Shown piece after piece: positions 2,104 through 54,081 of a stretch of 64,000 bases of DNA. The position numbers and the translations under genes were made by a program. Numbering within the stretch: the first letter of the stretch is position 1; each line of letters starts with the position of its first letter. The notes beneath the pieces are model-generated. The model was given only the letters and a program-made list of their open reading frames with translations, had not been told where the DNA came from and made no database searches. Source of the stretch: a virus; the UHGV virus genome UHGV-0125821; one strand, 5' to 3'.

Positions 2104-4021
2104 CAATCCTTTACGAATTAATATTCAGTCTACTTTTGCTGATACGATCCCCGGCTATGTGCCAAGTCGCTGGTCTTCAGAAGAATTAAGCGAAGATGAC
2201 CTGATTTTTGAGGCGGCGACCTTAGAAGATATTGAGCTTGCCTATATGGGCAATGAAATTCTGGTTGTGTCTGACGAAGCTATGTTTGAGTCCATAACTA
2301 CAACCAGAATTCGGTTAGCTCAAACAATGCGAGCTTTCGTCCGTGCGCTGAATCGTGGCCTGAATGGTACGAATATTATGGCAGGGACTGATGAAGCCGG
2401 GACCGATGAAAATGGACGTAATTGTATTGGTGGTGCGATTATCGGTCGTGTACGTCGGGTAGCTAATATCCCTGTTTTGACCGCGCAGATACCGCTTACT
2501 GACGGGCAGAGTACAAGCATAATTTTCCACTCTCCAACAGCTGACGGGGCAAAAATAAAGAGTAACGACGAGCTTGTTGCATTTCAGTTTTTACTTAATA
2601 AGCGTAACGTAACTCACGTTGTCGCCCCGATTGGTGGGAGAGATGTTTCTTTAAGCCAGGTATGCCAGGCGCTATCTAATTTGATTGAGCGTAACAGCGA
2701 AAAATTTAAGAAAGCAAAAGAGCGCCAGGACAAAATGAAGGCAGATATTGAGAGTTATCTCAATGAAGCAGATAAACTGGCAGAAGAACGGTCAATAATG
2801 ATTGATCAGGTGGACGTTGCGCAACGTGGGCTGACTGAAAAGCGTGCTGCTCTTACGGAGATGCAAAAAAAACTTGATGCCCAGAAAGCCATCAACGAGG
2901 AATTACAAGAAAAACGCGATAAATTGTTGTCTGCTAAAGGTGAAAAAACGAAGGAACGAGCGTTTAGTGACCAGCTGCGACATGTAAAACATAATCTTGC
3001 CATTGACGGAAAAACAGTGCTGGATAATGGCGCTGAAGTTAATTATATCACGTCCGGCAGTGACAATTTCGTTACGATAGTAGCACCTGAAGGTAAATTC
3101 AGTATTGATGCCAGTGCTGTCAAAGGAGGCAGTTTGGCAGATGCTGCAACCAAATTACTTAAAGCCTACCGAGAGCATAACGCAGATAAATATAAAGTTG
3201 ATGTGTTACCAGGCCAGCAGGAAGACCCCGAACCACCACAGACAGACCCCGAGACGAACCCAGTATCACAACCAGAGAGCCAGGATGTAGGTAAATACCA
3301 CTATGCACTTCAATCTCGCCCGGCTGGTGTTGGTGCTGTGCCGGATGGAAATAAAGCCGTGCTTGATCGTCCTGACCAGGCTGATCAGTATTACGAATAT
3401 GCTCGTCACGGTATCATTACGTATGACCGTAAACTGACAGATGAAGAAGTCAGCCAGTACGAGTTGCTCTATCTTCCTGATGAAGATGAGCTGAAAGATT
3501 TTGCAGGCCAATTGGTTGTGTCCAGCATGTCGAAACATATTGATGGCTATGTAGACCTGTTTGGCAGTGACCTGAAAACATTCAAGGCGCAAGTGAAAAT
3601 TCTTTTCCGCAAAGCGTTTCCAAACGTGGCGTATCCACTTGGTGATGGGGAGAACCTTTTCATTATGGACGTGTATAACGCCCTTCAAAATCATTCAAGC
3701 GAAGTAAAAACAGAGCATGTGGTTGAGCCGGAATCACAACCACAACCAGCACCAGAACAGGAGCCGGAGCCAGAAGAAGCTGGTGAATCAGCAAGTGAAG
3801 CTGATCAGGAGGCAGATAAAGCACTGGAGTACCTGAAATCCGTGCCGGAGCAGTTTACATCCCGCGATCTGACGGTCATCAGTGCTGAACTTGATCATGT
3901 GCAGGAAGCAGCAAACGCTCTAATCAGCGCAGGTCGATACGACGAGAACGAAGCCACTGTTGGTGCAGCAGTTGACTACCTGATCAACATTCTGGCTGAA
4001 ATTCAGCAGGGAGGTGCTTAA
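2096..4021 (+). CDS. Large internal head/antirestriction-type protein (DarA-position; about 641 aa)
   Basis: Size and operon position match P1 DarA; ATG at 2096 follows a GGAGG; acidic Pro/Glu-rich linkers. I do not recognise the sequence itself, so the name is positional. Confidence 0.45.
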   Translation: MINNPLRINIQSTFADTIPGYVPSRWSSEELSEDDLIFEAATLEDIELAYMGNEILVVSDEAMFESITTTRIRLAQTMRAFVRALNRGLNGTNIMAGTDEAGTDENGRNCIGGAIIGRVRRVANIPVLTAQIPLTDGQSTSIIFHSPTADGAKIKSNDELVAFQFLLNKRNVTHVVAPIGGRDVSLSQVCQALSNLIERNSEKFKKAKERQDKMKADIESYLNEADKLAEERSIMIDQVDVAQRGLTEKRAALTEMQKKLDAQKAINEELQEKRDKLLSAKGEKTKERAFSDQLRHVKHNLAIDGKTVLDNGAEVNYITSGSDNFVTIVAPEGKFSIDASAVKGGSLADAATKLLKAYREHNADKYKVDVLPGQQEDPEPPQTDPETNPVSQPESQDVGKYHYALQSRPAGVGAVPDGNKAVLDRPDQADQYYEYARHGIITYDRKLTDEEVSQYELLYLPDEDELKDFAGQLVVSSMSKHIDGYVDLFGSDLKTFKAQVKILFRKAFPNVAYPLGDGENLFIMDVYNALQNHSSEVKTEHVVEPESQPQPAPEQEPEPEEAGESASEADQEADKALEYLKSVPEQFTSRDLTVISAELDHVQEAANALISAGRYDENEATVGAAVDYLINILAEIQQGGA

Positions 4022-4471: not shown

Positions 4472-5869
4472 TTGGAGTGTATTTTGAACAAATCAGTTAC
4501 TTCTGCGCTTTCCGGGGCCACAGATATTAACAGCGTCATTGCTCTGGTTTCTTCATTAGAGAGGAAAGAAACACGCCTGGGGCGAAGTAGCTACGTAGTC
4601 ACCAGCAAAGGTGCAGAGGTAAAGACGGCTTTTAAGGTCGTTGATGCCAGCAGTCTGATCATTTCGAACAACCTTGACGGTACGATTAACCCGGCCTTCC
4701 CGGAAGAACTCCAACCACGAGATCGTACCCGGTTATCCAGCAAACTCCAGGTTAACCGTATTGCCTCCAATTTACGCCCGGCACAATTAACGGATTCCGG
4801 TATGAGCAGCCACGGAGCGCCGATAGTTGGTCCGGACAACGTTGTTGAATCCGGCAACGGAAGGAGTATGGGTATCTGGCGTGCCTATGAGCAAGGACAG
4901 GCGGATGAGTATCGCCAGTACCTGATCGACCATGCGAAAGAGTTTGGTCTGAATCCTGACGAAATTTCGCAAATGTCTATGCCCGTACTGGTGCGAGAAA
5001 GACTCACAGATGTAGACCGCGCTCAATTTGCCCGCGATTCAAACATTAGCGATCTGCAAGAGATGGCAGCAAGTGAAAAAGCGTATGCGGATGCGCAATT
5101 TCTCACTGAGAGCGTCATGGCGCTATTTAATCCTTCAGATGATGGAAATCTGCTGGCGCGGTCCAATGATGCGTTTATTCGTGCGTTTTTGCGCGAAATT
5201 GGCGATACAGCGACAGCAGGCTTGCTTACTGCCGATGGGCGTCCCACGAAACAGCTTATCGATCGCATCCAGAATGCAATTTTTGCCAAAGCGTACAAGG
5301 ATGAAAGGCTTGTTCGGCTGGTGTCGGAAGAGCCAGATCCGGAAATGCGTAATATCCTGACCGCATTAAATACGGCAGCCAGCGATTTTGCGCAAATGCA
5401 GTCGCTGTCTGGCGACGCTCACCATGACGCAGTAACAGGCTTAGTGGACGGTATAGAGCAGGTTAATGGCCTGGATACACAGGCGATAGCAGCACTCCAG
5501 GAAGCAATTAATCTTGTACGTGAAGCCAAAGACAACGGTCAGGCCGTTGAAGAAGTGATCGCCCAAAGGGGGTTATTCGGCGACAGTACACCGGAAGCTG
5601 AGGCATTGGCGTTATTCATCGTAGCAAATAATCGCAGTGCGAAGCGTATGGGGGCAGCATTCAAAAAAATGGCGCAAAAAATCAACGACGAGCTGACTCA
5701 TAAACAACAGGCATTGGGCGATATGTTCGGCGGTGGCGATGTTGATCTGCGTCGTATTTTGTCTGCTGTATCTGATGAAATTGAGGGTGAATTTGGCGAA
5801 GGGAAAGGTCTGAACTTTGCTATGTTTGAAAATTCTACAGATCTAAATAATTGCCGTACGGAAAACTAA
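4472..5869 (+). CDS. Hypothetical protein (dar-like operon)
   Basis: 465-aa ORF with TTG start in the track; an in-frame TTG at 4484 has a better-spaced GGAG. Confidence 0.55.
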   Translation: MECILNKSVTSALSGATDINSVIALVSSLERKETRLGRSSYVVTSKGAEVKTAFKVVDASSLIISNNLDGTINPAFPEELQPRDRTRLSSKLQVNRIASNLRPAQLTDSGMSSHGAPIVGPDNVVESGNGRSMGIWRAYEQGQADEYRQYLIDHAKEFGLNPDEISQMSMPVLVRERLTDVDRAQFARDSNISDLQEMAASEKAYADAQFLTESVMALFNPSDDGNLLARSNDAFIRAFLREIGDTATAGLLTADGRPTKQLIDRIQNAIFAKAYKDERLVRLVSEEPDPEMRNILTALNTAASDFAQMQSLSGDAHHDAVTGLVDGIEQVNGLDTQAIAALQEAINLVREAKDNGQAVEEVIAQRGLFGDSTPEAEALALFIVANNRSAKRMGAAFKKMAQKINDELTHKQQALGDMFGGGDVDLRRILSAVSDEIEGEFGEGKGLNFAMFENSTDLNNCRTEN

Positions 5870-5933: not shown

Positions 5934-7616
5934 ATGGCAACGAAAGACAAAAACAAAGGCTTTCTGTCAGCATTGAAGAAAGCCTTCAACGGTGGTGATG
6001 TTACGCCCGCCGATCCGGTCGTTTTTACGAGCGGACATAGTGTCGTTGCTCGTTCCGGCCTGTCTGCTTTACGTCCAGGCATCCTGGGGAGCAATAGCGA
6101 TGGCATGACGAGTGAAGCAGATTCAATTTCTTTATCCGCTGAACTGCCCGGCGAGCGCCTGCAAAAGTACAACATCCTGGAAACGATGGCTAAAAGCCCG
6201 ACTATCTCGACGGCTTTAAATATTCACATTGCACATGCGCTTGCGCCTTCAAAAAAAACCGGACAAGCATTCATCCTTTCGCCAAAGGATGGTTCCGATG
6301 CCGAGGCAGTAAGTAGATGTGAAGAGTTAACCGCTGATTTGGGGGCGATGATTAATGACGGACTTCCTTCATGGGCCATGATTATGGCGATCTTTGGGGT
6401 GTCTTATGTCCGACCTTATGCTGAACAGGGCAGGGGGATAACAGGCATTGAGTCCAGTTATTACACTCTGCCACACTTCGTCCAGGAGTTTTATCGTGGT
6501 AGCCAGCTGGTAGGTTTCAGTGGTGATTACATTCTGGATACGCATAGTTTGCGCAGAGTAATAACCGAACCGTGGAATCTGGTTTCCATGAAAAATCCCT
6601 ATTGGACGCCACAGCATAAAGTTATTCCGGTTAGCTACGGCACAAAAGGGTACTCACTGTTAAGTGATCAGGCTGATAAGCCGTTAATGGAGACGCAGAA
6701 TTACGGAACTTCATTCCTGGAATACAGCTATGAACCTTACCTTAATTTATGTGCTTCGCTCGCCGCGCTGAAATCAACGCGAAATAATGCAGCCAAAATT
6801 GACCGCCTGATTGCTCTTACGACGAACACACTGGACCCGGTTAATGCGGCGAACTATACGCGTGGCGTCAGCCAGGCATTGAAGCGTCATAGTGACCTGG
6901 TGGCGCAAAGGTCGATTAATGCCAACGCTATTCCGACTGTGCTTAACCATCTGATACCTGTTATGGGAGACGGGAAGAACGGCATCACCATTGATACGCA
7001 ATCCATACCCGCAGATATCAGTGGTATTGAAGACGTTATGTTTCACCTCCGGCAGCTTGCTGCAAGCCTCGGCATTGACGCAACAATGCTTGGCTGGGCT
7101 GATCAGATGAGCGGAGGGCTTGGAGAAGGCGGCTGGCAGCAAACTGCTATCCAGGCTGCATTGCGTGCGAACTGGATCAGACAGGCCGCCCAGCGAACTA
7201 TTTATCGGCTTCTGGACATTCACCTCGCTTATAAATATGGCAAGGTTTACACCGAAACAAACCGCCCTTATGACGTGCAATTCAACTCAATGAACACAGC
7301 TATCCAGGAAGAGGAAAACCGAGAACTGGATGCACGCGCCAACTTTGTTGCTGTCATCTCCCAAATTATGGACCAGATCCAGAACAACCCGAAACTGGCT
7401 GGTAGCGACGCGTTTATGCGTTATCTGTTCACTGAGCAGTTGCACATCGACGATGACACTCTCAACACCATGATCAAAGAGTTTAAGGCGAATGAATCAG
7501 AGCAAAACAACGAGCATGGTATGTACGAATCCGCGCCGTTGTCGTCCGGTGACGATCCGGAAAACTGGACGCCAGAACAGTTAATAAACTTTGCAAAATT
7601 TGTGATGAGCAATTAA
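5934..7616 (+). CDS. Hypothetical protein (dar-like operon)
   Basis: 560-aa ORF on the same strand, tightly packed. Confidence 0.55.
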   Translation: MATKDKNKGFLSALKKAFNGGDVTPADPVVFTSGHSVVARSGLSALRPGILGSNSDGMTSEADSISLSAELPGERLQKYNILETMAKSPTISTALNIHIAHALAPSKKTGQAFILSPKDGSDAEAVSRCEELTADLGAMINDGLPSWAMIMAIFGVSYVRPYAEQGRGITGIESSYYTLPHFVQEFYRGSQLVGFSGDYILDTHSLRRVITEPWNLVSMKNPYWTPQHKVIPVSYGTKGYSLLSDQADKPLMETQNYGTSFLEYSYEPYLNLCASLAALKSTRNNAAKIDRLIALTTNTLDPVNAANYTRGVSQALKRHSDLVAQRSINANAIPTVLNHLIPVMGDGKNGITIDTQSIPADISGIEDVMFHLRQLAASLGIDATMLGWADQMSGGLGEGGWQQTAIQAALRANWIRQAAQRTIYRLLDIHLAYKYGKVYTETNRPYDVQFNSMNTAIQEEENRELDARANFVAVISQIMDQIQNNPKLAGSDAFMRYLFTEQLHIDDDTLNTMIKEFKANESEQNNEHGMYESAPLSSGDDPENWTPEQLINFAKFVMSN

Positions 7617-48149: not shown

Positions 48150-48469
48150 TTTAAGTTGAATTGTAAATTTCTCCGATGTACATTCACTACCGATTGGCAC
48201 ACCGGTCAACTTTTTGAGACAAACTGTTTAGTTTTTCGTATTATTGCCGCCGCCATACCTATGGCGGTGCAATATAGGTGGCTGAAAAGCCCCCGTTGAC
48301 TCACGGTGTTCCAGCCTTTATTGCGCCGCCACCAGACCGTGGAACAGTCGATGGCGGCTCCGAAAGCAAGGAGTCACTACACTATGAACAACTACAGTCT
48401 TTTCCCATCACTCGTCGTCCACCACTCACGCGATAATCTGCATTCTTTACTCGCGCTGGGGGTGTCAAA

Positions 48470-48637: not shown

Positions 48638-48742
48638 AATACTGACTGTTGCGCCCTGGCATTATCGTGGGGTATATTTCTACGGCACCTTAGAAAAACG
48701 GGTGCCGGGATTGGAACCCCGGATAATGCAAAAGGCGACACA

Positions 48743-48766
48743 GACGCCGAAAGCGTCTTTTTTTTT
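48743..48766 (+). terminator. Rho-independent terminator
   Basis: GACGC-CGAAA-GCGTC followed by nine T. Confidence 0.75.
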
Positions 48767-48815
48767 GTGTCATGCCATCGCACAGCCATACGTAGCGTTT
48801 AGCTCAGAGATCAAT

Positions 48816-48891
48816 GGTAGTGCTGGCTGGGCTGCCGAAAGGCAGGCCGGTTCCCTTTTGCGCCGGTAGTTCCAACCCAGTCAGTGCTACC
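48816..48891 (+). ncRNA. Second c4-like antisense RNA (candidate)
   Basis: Stem GGTAGTGCTGG...CCAGTCAGTGCTACC around a CTGCC-GAAA-GGCAG hairpin; internal GGTAGTTCCAA is complementary to TTGGAAC...GGTAGC around the RBS of the icd-like ORF. Boundaries approximate. Confidence 0.3.
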
Positions 48892-48951
48892 GCCATTGAG
48901 ATTGGAACCTCACGCGGTAGCTCCTTAAATTAGCAAAAGGAGGCTGCCAAT

Positions 48952-49122
48952 ATGGCTACTATCCCTACCCCAACTCATTCTGAATTTATCTGGCGTTTCT
49001 ATTCCTGCCAAAAGCACCTGTATATCTGCGTCATGGCTGCTACCGAATCAGAGGCGCGCTCATACCTTCCCGAAGAACCCTGCATTTTTGCTGCTCGCTT
49101 CACTCTAATTGAAAGGTCTTAA
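48952..49122 (+). CDS. Second Icd-like small protein (56 aa)
   Basis: SEFIWRFYSCQKHLYICVMAATESEARSYLP is paralogous to the 10206-10430 product; SD AAGGAGG. Confidence 0.45.
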   Translation: MATIPTPTHSEFIWRFYSCQKHLYICVMAATESEARSYLPEEPCIFAARFTLIERS

Positions 49123-49244
49123 CGATAGTCTGCCACGAATAGTTACTTCCACTGCCTAAAGTTATTTAATTGCATTACAAAGTGTAAATTAGTAACATTA
49201 GAATCTCACACAGCACTATAACTATATGTTTTTTATGTAAAAGG

Positions 49245-49604
49245 ATGATAATCGTGGCTACTAAAATTAAACTTGAAAACCCTCAAACTGGCGAATCAAT
49301 CACCGGTTTTTATGGTTTTTCCTGGACTACATTCTTGTTTGGTGCTTTTCCAGCTTTGTTCAGGAAAGACTTTATAACTTTTATTGGGGTATTTGTAGTG
49401 ATGCTGATACTGGCATTCCTCACAGCCGGAATTGGCCCGTGGATTGCCTCATTTATCTGGGCGTTCATGTATAATAAATATTTCACCGTAAATAAGATAA
49501 AACAAGGCTTCATTTTTGCTGGTTCTCACACAGAAAATGAGTTGGCTGCTAGCAAGCTAGGATTGTCATTAAATCAAAACAACTGCAAAACTATTACCGA
49601 GTAA
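49245..49604 (+). CDS. Small membrane protein (DUF2628-like, tentative)
   Basis: ENPQTGESITGFYGFSWTTFLFGAFPALFRKDF plus two TM helices; AT-rich gene. Confidence 0.45.
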   Translation: MIIVATKIKLENPQTGESITGFYGFSWTTFLFGAFPALFRKDFITFIGVFVVMLILAFLTAGIGPWIASFIWAFMYNKYFTVNKIKQGFIFAGSHTENELAASKLGLSLNQNNCKTITE

Positions 49605-49643
49605 AGCCAAAAAGCAGGCTTAATAGTAAGCCTGCTATGTCAA

Positions 49644-50477
49644 TCACGAATCTCTCTGACAATTCAGAAACATAAACGCCCGCTTGTCTGTTAAATCCGT
49701 AACATAATACTCTCTCATGCCTGTAGGTTTTATTCTACGAGCATATACAAACTTATGAACTGGTTGTTTTTCCCCATAACTTACATCAGTCCTAAATTCA
49801 TCAACCACGCTACCATCTTTTTCAGTTTCCTTTCTCACTAGCTGATTTTCTAATACAGGCTTTGATTCGTCCATGCCACTAAAAGCATCCTGACCTGTGC
49901 TGTTGCCTCGGTTTCCGCGTGGCAAATCCCATGAAAAATAAGTGCCATAGTCAGTAATCACACGATCCCATGTTCCGGAATCCCCCATATAGTTAGAACG
50001 CTCCCCCTTGTAAGTTACAGCCACCTTACAGGCATACGTTTCACCATTATTTTTTTTATCATGTCCAGCCATGCTTGCAGGAGTTGCAGGGGAATTATGA
50101 ATAGATGCGCTTACATCATCTTGCGTTAATTCCTCAACTGGAGCAAATTCATATATGGGTGTGCCGAGGCTATTTAAATATAACTTATATCTAACCCTAA
50201 GCGCACTTCCATCAGAGAATTCATACGTTCCCAGACATTGGAGCTTATTTTTTTCTCTTATCTCATTGATCTGATTATAAGCATCAATTACAGAGATTGC
50301 TTCCTGATCGTCCTTAAGCAGTTCATTATAATCATCGATTAACATCTGTCTGGTTTTAGGGGCATTACAGTCAATTTTGCTAAAATCATAAGCAAAGGCA
50401 AATGTGGGAACAGAGAGAGCAACAACAGTAGCAAGTATTGTTGAGGAACATCTTTTCCCATTTTTTATAAAAAACAT
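49644..50477 (-). CDS. Secreted/exported hypothetical protein (AT-rich cargo)
   Basis: Start at the internal Met (50477) gives a signal peptide MFFIKNGKRCSSTILATVVALSVPTFAFA with GGAG upstream; the track start at 50555 is less likely. Confidence 0.5.
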   Translation of the reverse strand: MFFIKNGKRCSSTILATVVALSVPTFAFAYDFSKIDCNAPKTRQMLIDDYNELLKDDQEAISVIDAYNQINEIREKNKLQCLGTYEFSDGSALRVRYKLYLNSLGTPIYEFAPVEELTQDDVSASIHNSPATPASMAGHDKKNNGETYACKVAVTYKGERSNYMGDSGTWDRVITDYGTYFSWDLPRGNRGNSTGQDAFSGMDESKPVLENQLVRKETEKDGSVVDEFRTDVSYGEKQPVHKFVYARRIKPTGMREYYVTDLTDKRAFMFLNCQRDS

Positions 50478-50821
50478 TTCATTAACTCCATACTTTACCA
50501 TCTTAGCCGCGAGCGCGGTCCCTAAAACCCTTAACTTCACTGCACCGTCCTTCATGCAATCAAAATGACTTTTATGTTATAAAAATAATCAGCAAAATCA
50601 ACATGATTTAGGCCAAATTTCGGTCAAAAATAAAATCCACAAAAAGTGGTTGACACTATTTTGGAAATCACAAACTGCACATAATCCATCGCGCTAACGG
50701 CTCCCGTTGAAGGTTCTTTTGACGATTAACTTTCAGCCGAAGCGCGGTAGGGAGTCATAACGCCAAAGCAGGCCGCCATGTGCGGCCTTTTTTTGTATCC
50801 GTCATCCGTGGAGGAAGGACA

Positions 50822-51475
50822 ATGGAAAAGATCGCAATATTCAGCCTGACCACCAGCAAGCCTCAAATGCTCACTGCAATACTGAAAGACGGTGCTCTCA
50901 TTATTAACGAAGTAAAACCCCTCCCCGCGTCAGCATTGGAGCAAAAGCAAAAAATTCCTCCAGCTATAGCAGCCCTGCGGAAAAGCAAATTTAAGGTACT
51001 GGTAGACGAAATTACGCCAACGATCTCCGCTGGCACCGGAGCAAGCCAGGTGACTCTCAAGACCCGTCATGCCGATGGCAGAGCAGCAATCATCGTCGGG
51101 ATGGAAAGATACAGAGAGTTAAAACTCCAGAAGCTATTATCCCTGCCGCAAAATAACAAAGGTGCTTTCGAAATCCCTGACTCCATCGTTGACACCGAAT
51201 ACAACGGTAACGGAGAAGAAGTCTACCGGGTGAACTGGCAGGATATCAGGCCGGAGCATATTCTGATGATCCTGTGTTGCTACGCAACCGTATACCACAA
51301 CGTTGCCAGTGCGGATTACGTAGAGCAGATGATCGGTACAGTCGAGAAAGAGCAAAAAACAGGCATACTCGCTTCGTTCCTGTCCATTATTGGGCATGAA
51401 AAAGTTAAAGCAGGCACCTCCCAGCCAAAGTCACTGACTGGGAAAGAAGTTGATGAAGATACCGTGATACTTTGA
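50822..51475 (+). CDS. Hypothetical protein
   Basis: Start MEKIAIFSL after GGAGGAAGG; the track start at 50780 would include a terminator-like hairpin. Confidence 0.5.
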   Translation: MEKIAIFSLTTSKPQMLTAILKDGALIINEVKPLPASALEQKQKIPPAIAALRKSKFKVLVDEITPTISAGTGASQVTLKTRHADGRAAIIVGMERYRELKLQKLLSLPQNNKGAFEIPDSIVDTEYNGNGEEVYRVNWQDIRPEHILMILCCYATVYHNVASADYVEQMIGTVEKEQKTGILASFLSIIGHEKVKAGTSQPKSLTGKEVDEDTVIL

Positions 51476-53352: not shown

Positions 53353-54081
53353 TCATTTTTTTGAAAGATCAATTCCAGTATTATCAAACAAACTGGAAAT
53401 ATCAGACACCAATTTATTAAAATGCTTGTCATCATTATAGAATGATGTGCTTTTTATAGCGACTATAAAATCACATAAATCTTGCGGAGATTCAATGCTA
53501 ACCCCCTTATTTTTATATAGTTCAATAATACTGCCAACATCAGTATGCAATAGTTTTATCGCGCCACAAATTTCTCGCTGTTTCGTAACCAAGTCATTAA
53601 GTTTATTTTCATTTTCATCTAAGATTTGTTTTGAATATTTAGCGTCATTGGTTGCTTGATTTAACTTTGTTTTCTTTCTTTGCAATTCTATTCTTTTATC
53701 ATAATCAGCAACTTCATCTAAATATCTTATTTCAGTGTATAATTTACTTGTTAGCTTAGATATCTTCAGTGTGAGAACAGGAGCTAACACAGATGCAAAT
53801 ACTCCATAAACAAATGGGATTACAACGTGATAAACCCACGGGGATACAATCCAATTATCAATGAACGGGACATTACCACCAACAGAAACAATAGATAATG
53901 TATATAGGATGTCGTCCTTTGACTTTAATATAATTAAAATATCCTTCCAGTTAAAAATTAGAAAAGAAATGACAACATATGCAAAAACCTTGTTAAATAT
54001 TTTATCTTTTATTATTTCAGAAAATGATTTTAGTTCTGTTTCATTTATAGACGGATTATCTTTAACTTTTTCTGACATCAT
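53353..54081 (-). CDS. Membrane-anchored coiled-coil protein (AT-rich cargo; exclusion/abortive-infection candidate)
   Basis: 242 aa with N-terminal TM helices then a long K/N/D-rich helical region; much lower GC than flanks. Confidence 0.5.
   Translation of the reverse strand: MMSEKVKDNPSINETELKSFSEIIKDKIFNKVFAYVVISFLIFNWKDILIILKSKDDILYTLSIVSVGGNVPFIDNWIVSPWVYHVVIPFVYGVFASVLAPVLTLKISKLTSKLYTEIRYLDEVADYDKRIELQRKKTKLNQATNDAKYSKQILDENENKLNDLVTKQREICGAIKLLHTDVGSIIELYKNKGVSIESPQDLCDFIVAIKSTSFYNDDKHFNKLVSDISSLFDNTGIDLSKK

What the first reader, a model, noticed from the sequence alone, without database searches (positions are those of the whole stretch)
49130..50700. AT-rich cargo islet after ref: small membrane protein plus exported protein on opposite strands
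GC content drops sharply here. The islet encodes a DUF2628-like membrane protein (49245-49604) and a 277-aa signal-peptide protein (49644-50477), at the position where P1 carries its variable defence locus after ref. The composition suggests recent horizontal acquisition, and the contents are candidates for exclusion or defence functions.
Basis: partly seen in the sequence, partly recalled or inferred. Interest (0 to 1): 0.55.

Follow-up and report, generated by a model that had tools for sequence, protein, structure and literature searches.

The report
Variable exported-protein islet in D6-like phage-plasmid
This is a real AT-rich, swappable two-gene cassette in a D6-like plasmid prophage, encoding a small membrane protein and a secreted protein partly related to phage P1's SimB; it is already present in the published phage D6 genome, is a reasonable but untested candidate for blocking entry of other phages, and matches no known defence system.

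Summary
Window 49107-50497 has 37.8% GC against a window mean of 47.8% (z = -3.3). It carries two convergent genes. The window is a close relative of Escherichia phage D6 (98% identity), and the genes are D6 orf80 and orf79.

- **memA (49254-49604, +, 116 aa from a GTG start):** belongs to a widespread, uncharacterised small membrane-protein family. It is not a Pfam DUF2628 member.
- **expB (49644-50477, -, 277 aa):** has a Sec signal peptide, a domain 46% identical to full-length P1 SimB, a fast-evolving linker, and a very rare all-beta C-terminal domain. That domain is modelled with confidence as a small beta-barrel. No SimC or SimA homologue is present.

The slot between the immI region (C4 RNA, icd, ant, pmgF) and mat is variable. 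About half of D6-type plasmids carry this islet (56 of 112). The others carry different cassettes there, each including at least one predicted exported protein. Both genes are under purifying selection but have separate histories.

No known defence family matches. A Sim-like envelope block to superinfection by expB is my best guess, and it is inferred, not shown. Published work already notes the simB-like gene and the variability around it. Interest is modest.

The parts
49107..50497 (.). Variable AT-rich cargo segment (the islet proper).
   Evidence: GC 0.378, z = -3.26. The left edge is the junction with D6 at 49106. The right edge is where plasmids with other cargo regain homology: D6-locus 6441, equal to about window 50498.
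49254..49604 (+). memA: 116-aa small membrane protein, equal to D6 orf80. The mechanical ATG ORF starts at 49245.
   Evidence: 100% aa identity to D6 orf80. PHROG 4915, E 3e-47. 183 homologues with the invariant motif GFYGFSWTTFFFGxFPALFRxDF...WAFMYNKYYT. Hydrophobic residues 40-72. No Pfam or NCBIfam hit.
49613..49636 (-). Terminator-like hairpin between the two convergent genes: 10-bp stem with a T-run on the - strand, downstream of the expB stop.
   Evidence: Consensus scan. It is a pattern match only.
49644..50477 (-). expB: 277-aa exported two-domain protein, equal to D6 orf79, which is annotated 'simB-like'.
   Evidence: 97.5% aa identity to D6 orf79. PHROG 13054, E 5e-191. dN/dS about 0.15 among alleles.
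50391..50477 (-). expB signal peptide (residues 1-29, ending AFA|Y).
   Evidence: Sequence features. The equivalent region of P1 SimB aligns with it.
50130..50390 (-). expB SimB-like domain (residues 30-116), with two conserved Cys (C37, C81).
50043..50129 (-). expB linker (residues 117-145), rich in P, A, T and S. It is the fastest-evolving part.
   Evidence: dN 0.18-0.20 and dS about 0.55, with indels between alleles. pLDDT below 50.
49647..50042 (-). expB C-terminal domain (residues 146-277): a rare all-beta domain with an invariant Cys pair (C150, C273) and the loop motif (R/H)G(N/M)RG(N/D)STG.
50498..50821 (.). Conserved backbone intergenic region between expB and mat. It is AT-rich up to about 50700 and contains a terminator-like hairpin at 50770-50788 (+). 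It is not cargo.
   Evidence: Retained at 91-94% identity in plasmids with other cargo. Hairpin.
48810..49122 (+). Left flank: C4 antisense RNA (48810-48897) and a truncated icd (48952-49122) of the immI region. Here it abuts the islet because ant and pmgF are deleted.
   Evidence: Rfam C4, 76.7 bits. 1343-bp deletion relative to D6.
50822..51475 (+). Right flank: mat (maturation control), a backbone gene.
   Evidence: D6 orf78, 'similar to P1 gene mat'. dS 0.05-0.09 among relatives.

Best explanation
The islet is a pair of independent accessory (moron-type) cassettes. They sit in a recombination-prone cargo slot between the immI immunity region and mat of a D6-like P1-type phage-plasmid.

expB is exported by Sec to the periplasm. 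There it folds into two domains, each probably held by a disulfide: a SimB-like alpha+beta domain and a small beta-barrel, joined by a flexible linker. I infer that it acts at the cell envelope of the lysogen to hinder entry of superinfecting phages. That is a Sim-like superinfection exclusion acting after adsorption and before DNA reaches the cytoplasm.

memA is a separate small inner-membrane protein from a widespread family. Its role is unknown. It may also be envelope-directed, but it is not an obligate partner of expB.

Shown: composition, gene structure, homology, domain architecture, fold class, variability of the slot, purifying selection, and separate histories of the two genes.
Inferred: periplasmic location, and expression in the lysogen.
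Speculative: the exclusion function and its target.
For: - The element is D6-like, and these are D6 orf80 and orf79.
- expB residues 8-116 align with all of P1 SimB at 46% identity, including the signal peptide and both Cys.
- P1 simABC lies next to immI (c4-icd-ant), just as this islet does.
- P1 simB overlaps simC, the annotated superimmunity gene, by 8 nt. Here the SimB module is instead covalently fused to another beta-rich module, which suggests SimB works physically with a partner domain.
- Each domain has its own conserved Cys pair, consistent with an oxidising compartment.
- The C-domain is strongly conserved and is recombined with at least two different N-modules at the same slot (P0009 in L006 and L013).
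- Each alternative cargo seen at this slot includes at least one predicted signal-peptide protein.
- dN/dS is about 0.15 for expB and 0.08 or less for memA, so both are functional genes.
- Published work reports simABC as a low-GC, highly variable region in P1-like phage-plasmids (PMC9603915). It also reports the simB homologue of D6-like prophages as a presumed exclusion gene, replaced in pSL26_91 (PMC6799933).
- Independence of memA: its dS is 0.013 where expB's is 0.20-0.26. It is absent from allele C and from L009. It also occurs alone in chromosomes, prophages and jumbo phages.
Against: - There is no experimental phenotype for this gene.
- There is none for P1 SimB either; its P1 annotation reads only 'putative superimmunity accessory function'.
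- SimC, the gene P1 annotates as conferring superimmunity, has no homologue in the window.
- PADLOC, Pfam and NCBIfam give no hits.
- No convincing sigma-70 promoter was found upstream of expB by the simple scan, so expression in the lysogen is unproven.
- Slot alleles do not strictly co-vary with alleles of the injection transglycosylase gene sit.
Confidence: 0.4

Rival explanations
1. Host-directed lysogenic-conversion factor. expB would be a periplasmic binding or inhibitor protein that changes envelope physiology, for example protection from lysozyme or other peptidoglycan hydrolases, or binding of a small ligand. It would benefit the host in the gut or animal niche and would not act on phages.
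For: - The N-domain resembles cystatin/NTF2-like folds, which are common in inhibitors.
- Stand-alone C-domain homologues occur in chromosomal islets of small exported proteins and lipoproteins, beside fimbrial operons.
- The plasmids come from animal, food and clinical enterobacteria.
Against: - There is no sequence match to MliC/PliC or any Pfam family.
- The only sequence homologue with any functional label is P1 SimB, in the superimmunity locus.
- The slot lies next to the phage immunity region.
Confidence: 0.25
2. Two-gene system. memA and expB would work together as one envelope-spanning defence or exclusion unit, with a membrane anchor or sensor plus a periplasmic effector.
For: - They are adjacent and convergent within one compositional islet.
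- They co-occur in all allele-A plasmids examined and in D6.
- This layout recalls the T4 pairing of the membrane protein Imm with the periplasmic protein Sp (from my own knowledge of T4, not tested here).
Against: - Their histories are discordant: memA dS is 0.013 against expB dS of 0.20-0.26 in the same plasmids, and the reverse extreme in L025 (memA dS 0.52).
- expB-type proteins occur at the same slot without memA (L006, L013, L009).
- memA homologues occur widely without expB.
- The genes are convergent, not co-transcribed.
Confidence: 0.1
3. Accessory to the phage's own lytic cycle. expB and/or memA would modulate lysis, virion maturation or release, for example by controlling the phage's own murein hydrolases. 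They would not be lysogen-expressed protective genes.
For: - The islet lies between pmgF (putative morphogenetic function) and mat (maturation control) in D6.
- memA homologues are carried by strictly lytic jumbo phages such as 121Q, inside early or nucleotide-metabolism gene blocks.
- No clear sigma-70 promoter precedes expB.
Against: - The slot is dispensable and replaceable in about half of otherwise similar plasmids.
- P1 simABC are non-essential for lytic growth (PMC10695390).
- The composition and mosaicism are typical of morons.
Confidence: 0.1
4. Decaying or functionless hitch-hiking DNA in a recombination hotspot.
For: There are no known family matches. The region is AT-rich and variable.
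Against: - The ORFs are intact in dozens of plasmids.
- dN/dS is about 0.15 (expB) and 0.08 or less (memA).
- The C-domain is near-invariant across 55-80% divergent relatives.
- Both genes have good Shine-Dalgarno sequences.
Confidence: 0.03

Closest known systems
Escherichia phage D6 orf79 / orf80 (NC_050154; Gilcrease & Casjens 2018 annotation)
   Same: These are the same genes at the same place. memA is 100% identical in protein sequence and expB 97.5%. The whole 3.1-kb neighbourhood is 98% identical.
   Different: The window lacks 1343 bp (3' icd, ant, pmgF) that D6 has just upstream, so here the islet abuts a truncated icd. D6 annotates orf79 with an upstream start (298 aa).
Phage P1 superimmunity locus simA-simB-simC
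   Same: The N-domain of expB is homologous to the whole of SimB (46% identity). Both have a Sec-type signal peptide. Both loci sit next to the immI region (c4-icd-ant). Both are low-GC variable regions of their phage-plasmid lineage (PMC9603915).
   Different: There is no SimC, the annotated superimmunity determinant, and no SimA. SimB is a stand-alone 111-aa protein in P1. Here it is fused through a linker to an unrelated 130-aa beta-barrel domain. The P1 locus is upstream of c4 and divergent from it, whereas this one is downstream of the immI operon and divergent from mat.
T4 Spackle (Sp) and Imm superinfection exclusion (working analogy only; from my own knowledge of T4)
   Same: A small periplasmic protein plus a small inner-membrane protein, both encoded by a phage. 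Sp blocks the incoming phage's tail lysozyme. D6-like phages carry a tail injection transglycosylase, Sit, which could be a comparable target.
   Different: There is no sequence or demonstrated fold relationship. The target and phenotype here are untested, and memA and expB are not linked in evolution.
Periplasmic lysozyme inhibitors of the MliC/PliC, PhiA and ACP type
Pfam DUF2628 / DUF6693 small membrane proteins
   Same: memA has a similar size and a similar hydrophobic 'F-x-W...F-F-G...R-K-D' type motif. A few homologues are named DUF2628 in UniRef.
   Different: The window protein scores no Pfam family at E <= 10. Family members reach DUF6693 (17 of 43, best E 6e-4) and DUF2628 (7 of 43, best E 0.055), all below the curated thresholds.

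Membership tests
P1 Sim superinfection-exclusion locus | SimC homologue (the gene P1 annotates as conferring superimmunity) | tested here: not met
   BLASTP of expB against SimC gives E 0.89. hhalign of the C-domain profile against SimC gives probability 0.05%. tblastn of SimC against the whole window finds nothing at E <= 1. PMC6799933 reports the same absence for a D6-like prophage.
P1 Sim superinfection-exclusion locus | SimB homologue | tested here: met
   expB residues 8-116 align with SimB residues 2-111 at 46% identity, E 1e-27. Here it is only one domain of a larger protein.
P1 Sim superinfection-exclusion locus | Exported, Sec-processed periplasmic product | tested here: inconclusive
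   The sequence shows a typical n/h/c signal peptide ending AFA and one Cys pair per domain. No signal-peptide predictor or experiment was available.
P1 Sim superinfection-exclusion locus | Location beside the immI region (c4-icd-ant) | tested here: met
   C4 RNA lies at 48810-48897 and icd at 48952-49122, immediately upstream. In D6 the islet follows ant-pmgF. The side and orientation differ from P1.
P1 Sim superinfection-exclusion locus | Blocks infection after adsorption when expressed | not testable with these tools
   This needs plating, adsorption and DNA-entry assays.
Pfam DUF2628 | Score at or above the Pfam gathering threshold for PF10947 | tested here: not met
   memA gives no Pfam hit at E <= 10. 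7 of 43 homologues hit, with best E 0.055, below threshold.
Known anti-phage defence systems (PADLOC-DB 2.0) | HMM match of either protein to a defence-system component | tested here: not met
   No family at E <= 1 for either protein.
MliC/PliC-type periplasmic lysozyme inhibitors | Sequence membership (Pfam MliC) or the conserved inhibitory loop motifs | tested here: not met
   There is no Pfam hit, and no PDB sequence or profile hit to any inhibitor at E <= 10.
MliC/PliC-type periplasmic lysozyme inhibitors | Small antiparallel beta-barrel fold | tested here: inconclusive
Variable cargo hotspot of a phage-plasmid lineage | Conserved flanks with alternative, unrelated contents among close relatives | tested here: met
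   56 of 112 D6-type plasmids carry this islet. The alternatives are: a 130-aa secreted protein with a 165-aa protein (L003, L012) or with a 202-aa annotated form (L011); a 291-aa protein with a different N-module and the same C-domain (L006, L013); and memA + expB + a 204-aa protein (L025). Breakpoints are at D6-locus 4739-5037 and 6441-6594.

The most novel reading that the evidence does not exclude
The rare C-terminal beta-barrel of expB would define a new family of phage-encoded periplasmic inhibitors that neutralise the tail-tip injection transglycosylase (Sit) of incoming P1/D6-type phages. That would be a Spackle-like mechanism in temperate phage-plasmids. The exchangeable N-terminal modules (SimB-like or helical) would set localisation or target specificity. 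This would also give the first mechanistic role for the SimB module of P1.
Probability: 0.1. Interest if true: 0.6.

Novelty: new variant of a known kind. Interest (0 to 1): 0.35.

Why it matters
D6-like and P1-like phage-plasmids are common in E. coli and Salmonella from animals, food and clinics, and they spread resistance genes. What their variable slots encode helps decide which phages and phage-plasmids can coexist in a cell.

If expB is an exclusion protein, it would show that the poorly understood P1 SimB module is a reusable part joined to different effector domains. It would also add a new, very rare periplasmic domain to the list of entry-blocking proteins.

If it has no phage phenotype, the islet remains an ordinary pair of morons of unknown function. 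Either way the genes themselves are not new, since they are in the published D6 genome.

Tried and rejected
- **Family libraries.** Pfam, NCBIfam and PADLOC scans of both proteins gave nothing usable. The only Pfam line, Lactamase_B_2 at E 0.13 for expB, was dismissed as noise.
- **DUF2628 membership of memA.** Rejected.
- **SimC relationship of the expB C-domain.** Rejected by BLASTP and hhalign.
- **First AF2 model of full-length expB.** Poor for the C-domain (mean pLDDT 57). A domain-only model with a broader alignment fixed this.
- **PDB sequence and profile search of the C-domain.** No meaningful hit.
- **afdb50 fold library.** Unavailable.
- **BFVD viral fold search.** Only two uncharacterised phage proteins near significance.
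- **Genomic context of stand-alone C-domain proteins** (P0133, P0147). They sit in clusters of small exported proteins or lipoproteins, which gives no functional clue.
- **Context of memA homologues.** They occur as single genes in the Cedecea chromosome, as the first gene after a serine recombinase in an Enterobacter prophage, and in jumbo-phage early regions. No consistent partner was seen.
- **The 'HrgC' label** on the 121Q homologue led nowhere in the literature.
- **P1 C1-operator consensus.** Absent from the window at up to 3 mismatches.
- **Simple promoter scan.** Found no convincing expB promoter.
- **Co-variation of slot allele with sit allele.** Roughly, D6-type sit goes with A14/B2/C1 and the other sit type with about A11/B8 (cross-referenced). 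This shows no strict link and is confounded by relatedness.
- **Papers.** The Gilcrease & Casjens D6 paper and the Lobocka P1 genome paper were not held in the library.
Full report
**1. What the window is**

The region around the finding is 98% identical to Escherichia phage D6, a P1-type plasmid prophage. The D6 annotation gives the local gene order: ref, small ORFs, icd, ant, pmgF, orf80, orf79 (minus strand, 'similar to P1 gene simB'), mat, gene 26, gene 25. Rfam finds the C4 antisense RNA of the immI region at 48810-48897 (76.7 bits) and isrK at 48685-48763. ref is confirmed by Pfam RecA_dep_nuc.

Relative to D6, the window lacks 1343 bp at position 49106. That deletion removes the 3' end of icd, all of ant and almost all of pmgF. 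As a result the AT-rich islet directly abuts a truncated icd.

**2. The observation**

The GC drop is real.
- 300-bp windows fall to 0.33-0.41 across 49100-50749, against 0.46-0.55 on either side.
- The variable segment 49107-50497 has GC 0.378. Same-sized windows across the 64 kb average 0.478 (sd 0.031), giving z = -3.26. Only 1.6% of windows are as low.
- Third-position GC is 0.39 and 0.31 for the two genes, against 0.50-0.53 for neighbouring backbone genes.

Both ORFs are present at the stated coordinates and are convergent.
- The small gene most likely starts at GTG 49254, giving 116 aa. Every homologue begins 'MATKI', D6 annotates 116 aa, and AGGA lies 8 nt upstream.
- The 277-aa start of the exported protein is supported by the PHROG 13054 profile, which aligns from residue 27 of the 303-aa ORF. 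It is also supported by homologues that begin at that Met and by a GGAG 8 nt upstream.
- A terminator-like hairpin lies between the two genes at 49613-49636.

**3. The small membrane protein (memA)**

memA is 100% identical to D6 orf80. It belongs to PHROG 4915 and to a family of at least 183 clusters with a strikingly conserved motif.

The family occurs in several settings:
- in chromosomes of many Proteobacteria, for example as a single gene between a universal stress protein gene and a short-chain dehydrogenase gene in Cedecea;
- as the first gene after a serine recombinase in an Enterobacter prophage;
- in 121Q-like jumbo coliphages at about 54% identity, and in Lactobacillus phages.

Hydropathy shows a 33-residue hydrophobic stretch plus a conserved hydrophobic N-terminal motif.

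memA has no Pfam or NCBIfam match, even at permissive thresholds. Among 43 homologues, 17 touch DUF6693 and 7 touch DUF2628, all below threshold. 'DUF2628-like' is therefore at most a faint resemblance. Its function is unknown.

**4. The exported protein (expB)**

expB is 97.5% identical to D6 orf79. It has four parts.
1. **Signal peptide**, ending AFA, with no lipobox.
3. **Linker**, rich in P, A, T and S. It is the fastest-evolving part, with dN about 0.18-0.20 and indels.
4. **C-terminal domain** (residues 146-277). It has an invariant cysteine pair and an invariant loop motif around GNRG(N/D)STG.

The C-domain shows no similarity to SimC. The window encodes no SimA or SimC.

The family is very rare. 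A profile search of 1.84 billion representative proteins returned 31 hits. Most were stand-alone SimB-like proteins of about 110 aa. Only about ten carry the C-domain, either alone behind a signal peptide or fused to unrelated N-terminal modules.

**5. The slot is a variable hotspot**

In PLSDB, 112 plasmids carry at least 80% of the D6-type mat/26 backbone segment. Of these, 56 carry the islet. The rest match only its last ~200 bp, which is the conserved mat-proximal intergenic DNA.

The alternatives at the same place are:
- a 130-aa signal-peptide protein plus a 165-aa protein (L003, L012), or plus a 202-aa annotated form in L011;
- a single 291-aa exported protein with a different, helical N-module and the same C-domain (L006, L013);
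- memA + expB + a 204-aa protein (L025);
- in a distant 88-kb relative, a 202-aa protein plus a SimB-type expB at 56% identity, without memA.

Breakpoints cluster just after ant or pmgF on the left, and at about window 50498 or 50651 on the right.

In complete E. coli genomes the islet occurs in 40 of 5426 genomes, always on plasmids.

The literature already notes three relevant points. D6-like prophages have a simB homologue but no simA or simC. The simB region is replaced in pSL26_91 (PMC6799933). And simABC is a low-GC, highly variable region of P1-like phage-plasmids (PMC9603915).

**6. Selection and history**

Against six allele-A relatives, expB has dS 0.06-0.28 with dN/dS about 0.15. 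Backbone genes (ref, mat, 26) show dS 0.02-0.10. memA is nearly identical (dS 0.013 or less) in five of the six, and very divergent (dS 0.52) in the sixth.

Both genes are therefore under purifying selection. They have different histories, which argues that they are separate cassettes and not one system. It also argues against a single recent acquisition.

**7. Position relative to P1**

In P1, ref is followed within 80 bp by mat and then by res/mod. P1 simABC lies elsewhere, flanking c4-icd-ant.

Here the immI region and the islet sit between ref and mat, and mat is followed by genes 26 and 25. The islet is therefore not at the P1 res/mod position. Its natural counterpart is the P1 sim locus beside immI.

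**8. Most likely mechanism**

Shown:
- a Sec-type signal peptide;
- two Cys-paired domains;
- SimB homology;
- a location beside the immunity region;
- a swappable slot in which every alternative cargo includes an exported protein;
- purifying selection.

Inferred: expB is a periplasmic protein of the lysogen that interferes with entry of superinfecting phages, as reported for P1 Sim. The properties of P1 Sim (normal adsorption, a processed periplasmic product) are from my own knowledge of Kliem & Dreiseikelmann 1989 and Maillou & Dreiseikelmann 1990, which I could not read here.

In P1, simB overlaps simC by 8 nt. In this lineage the SimB module is fused to a different beta-rich domain. This suggests SimB acts together with a partner module.

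A more specific and speculative idea is that the barrel inhibits the incoming phage's injection transglycosylase Sit, which D6 encodes. That would resemble T4 Spackle. A rough cross-tabulation of slot alleles against the two sit allele classes shows no strict co-variation.

I put about 0.4 on the exclusion reading. The main rival is a host-directed periplasmic inhibitor or binding protein (0.25). Smaller weights go to a memA-expB joint system, a lytic-cycle accessory role, and junk DNA.

**9. Novelty and verdict**

The feature is real, but the genes are already in the published D6 genome with a 'simB-like' label, and the variability of the region has been noted in the literature.

What this analysis adds:
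- the two-domain architecture of expB;
- the rarity, modular exchange and fold of the C-domain;
- the census of slot alleles;
- the evidence that memA and expB are independent;
- the rejection of DUF2628 membership and of any known defence family.

I classify it as a new variant of a known kind: a Sim-type exported-protein cargo next to the immunity region of a P1-like phage-plasmid. Interest is modest at 0.35.

Noticed in passing
window 49106 (junction); D6 locus L001 3706-5048: A 1343-bp deletion relative to phage D6 removes the 3' end of icd, the whole antirepressor gene ant and nearly all of pmgF. It leaves a 56-aa truncated Icd. Two swine E. coli plasmids, NZ_CP047013.1 and CP042632.1, have the same configuration. 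It may affect induction or immunity of this element.
   Followed up: partly
window 53353-54081 (-): A 242-aa gene (D6 orf73, hypothetical) has GC 0.29 and GC3 0.23. It is the strongest AT-rich outlier in the window, lies just after gene 25, and is probably another cargo gene.
   Followed up: no
window 50770-50788 (+): A strong terminator-like hairpin (7-bp stem, 6 GC pairs, then a T-run) lies about 35 nt upstream of the mat start codon (50822), in the conserved backbone intergenic region. It is unclear which + strand transcript it ends, or whether it attenuates mat.
   Followed up: no
window 48257-48336 (+) and 48685-48763 (+): There is a second, sub-threshold C4-like RNA match (40.2 bits against a gathering score of 45) about 500 bp upstream of the true C4. 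An isrK match (62.5 bits) lies immediately before C4.
   Followed up: no
L004 6146-6717; L012 4811-5382; L025 5731-6302: Some D6-like plasmids carry a RelE/ParE-HigA toxin-antitoxin cassette inserted between mat and gene 26. The window lacks it. This is a second variable slot close by.
   Followed up: no
D6 sit, L029 8335-12117 (outside the window): The injection transglycosylase / tape-measure gene sit falls into two allele classes among D6-like plasmids: 97-99% identity, and about 88% identity with a gap. PMC6799933 also noted sit divergence alongside replacement of the simB region in pSL26_91. My rough cross-tabulation shows no strict link with the slot allele.
   Followed up: partly
L011 (NZ_CP034790.1) 2297-3543; L005 (CP157128.1) 4794-5514: Other relatives show further erosion around the slot. 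L011 lacks icd, ant and pmgF entirely, and L005 has lost most of mat.
   Followed up: no
L019 4558-5058 and L021 5523-5924: Stand-alone homologues of the expB C-domain (P0133, P0147) sit, in two unrelated contigs, near homologous small histidine-rich lipoproteins. This is a recurring cluster of small exported proteins of unknown function.
   Followed up: partly
P1 SimC (L002 3826-4620): P1 SimC gives a sub-threshold Pfam match to tRNA_anti-like (an OB-fold family; E 0.0011, 19 bits against a cutoff of 23.5). This hints that the P1 superimmunity protein also contains a small beta-barrel.
   Followed up: no
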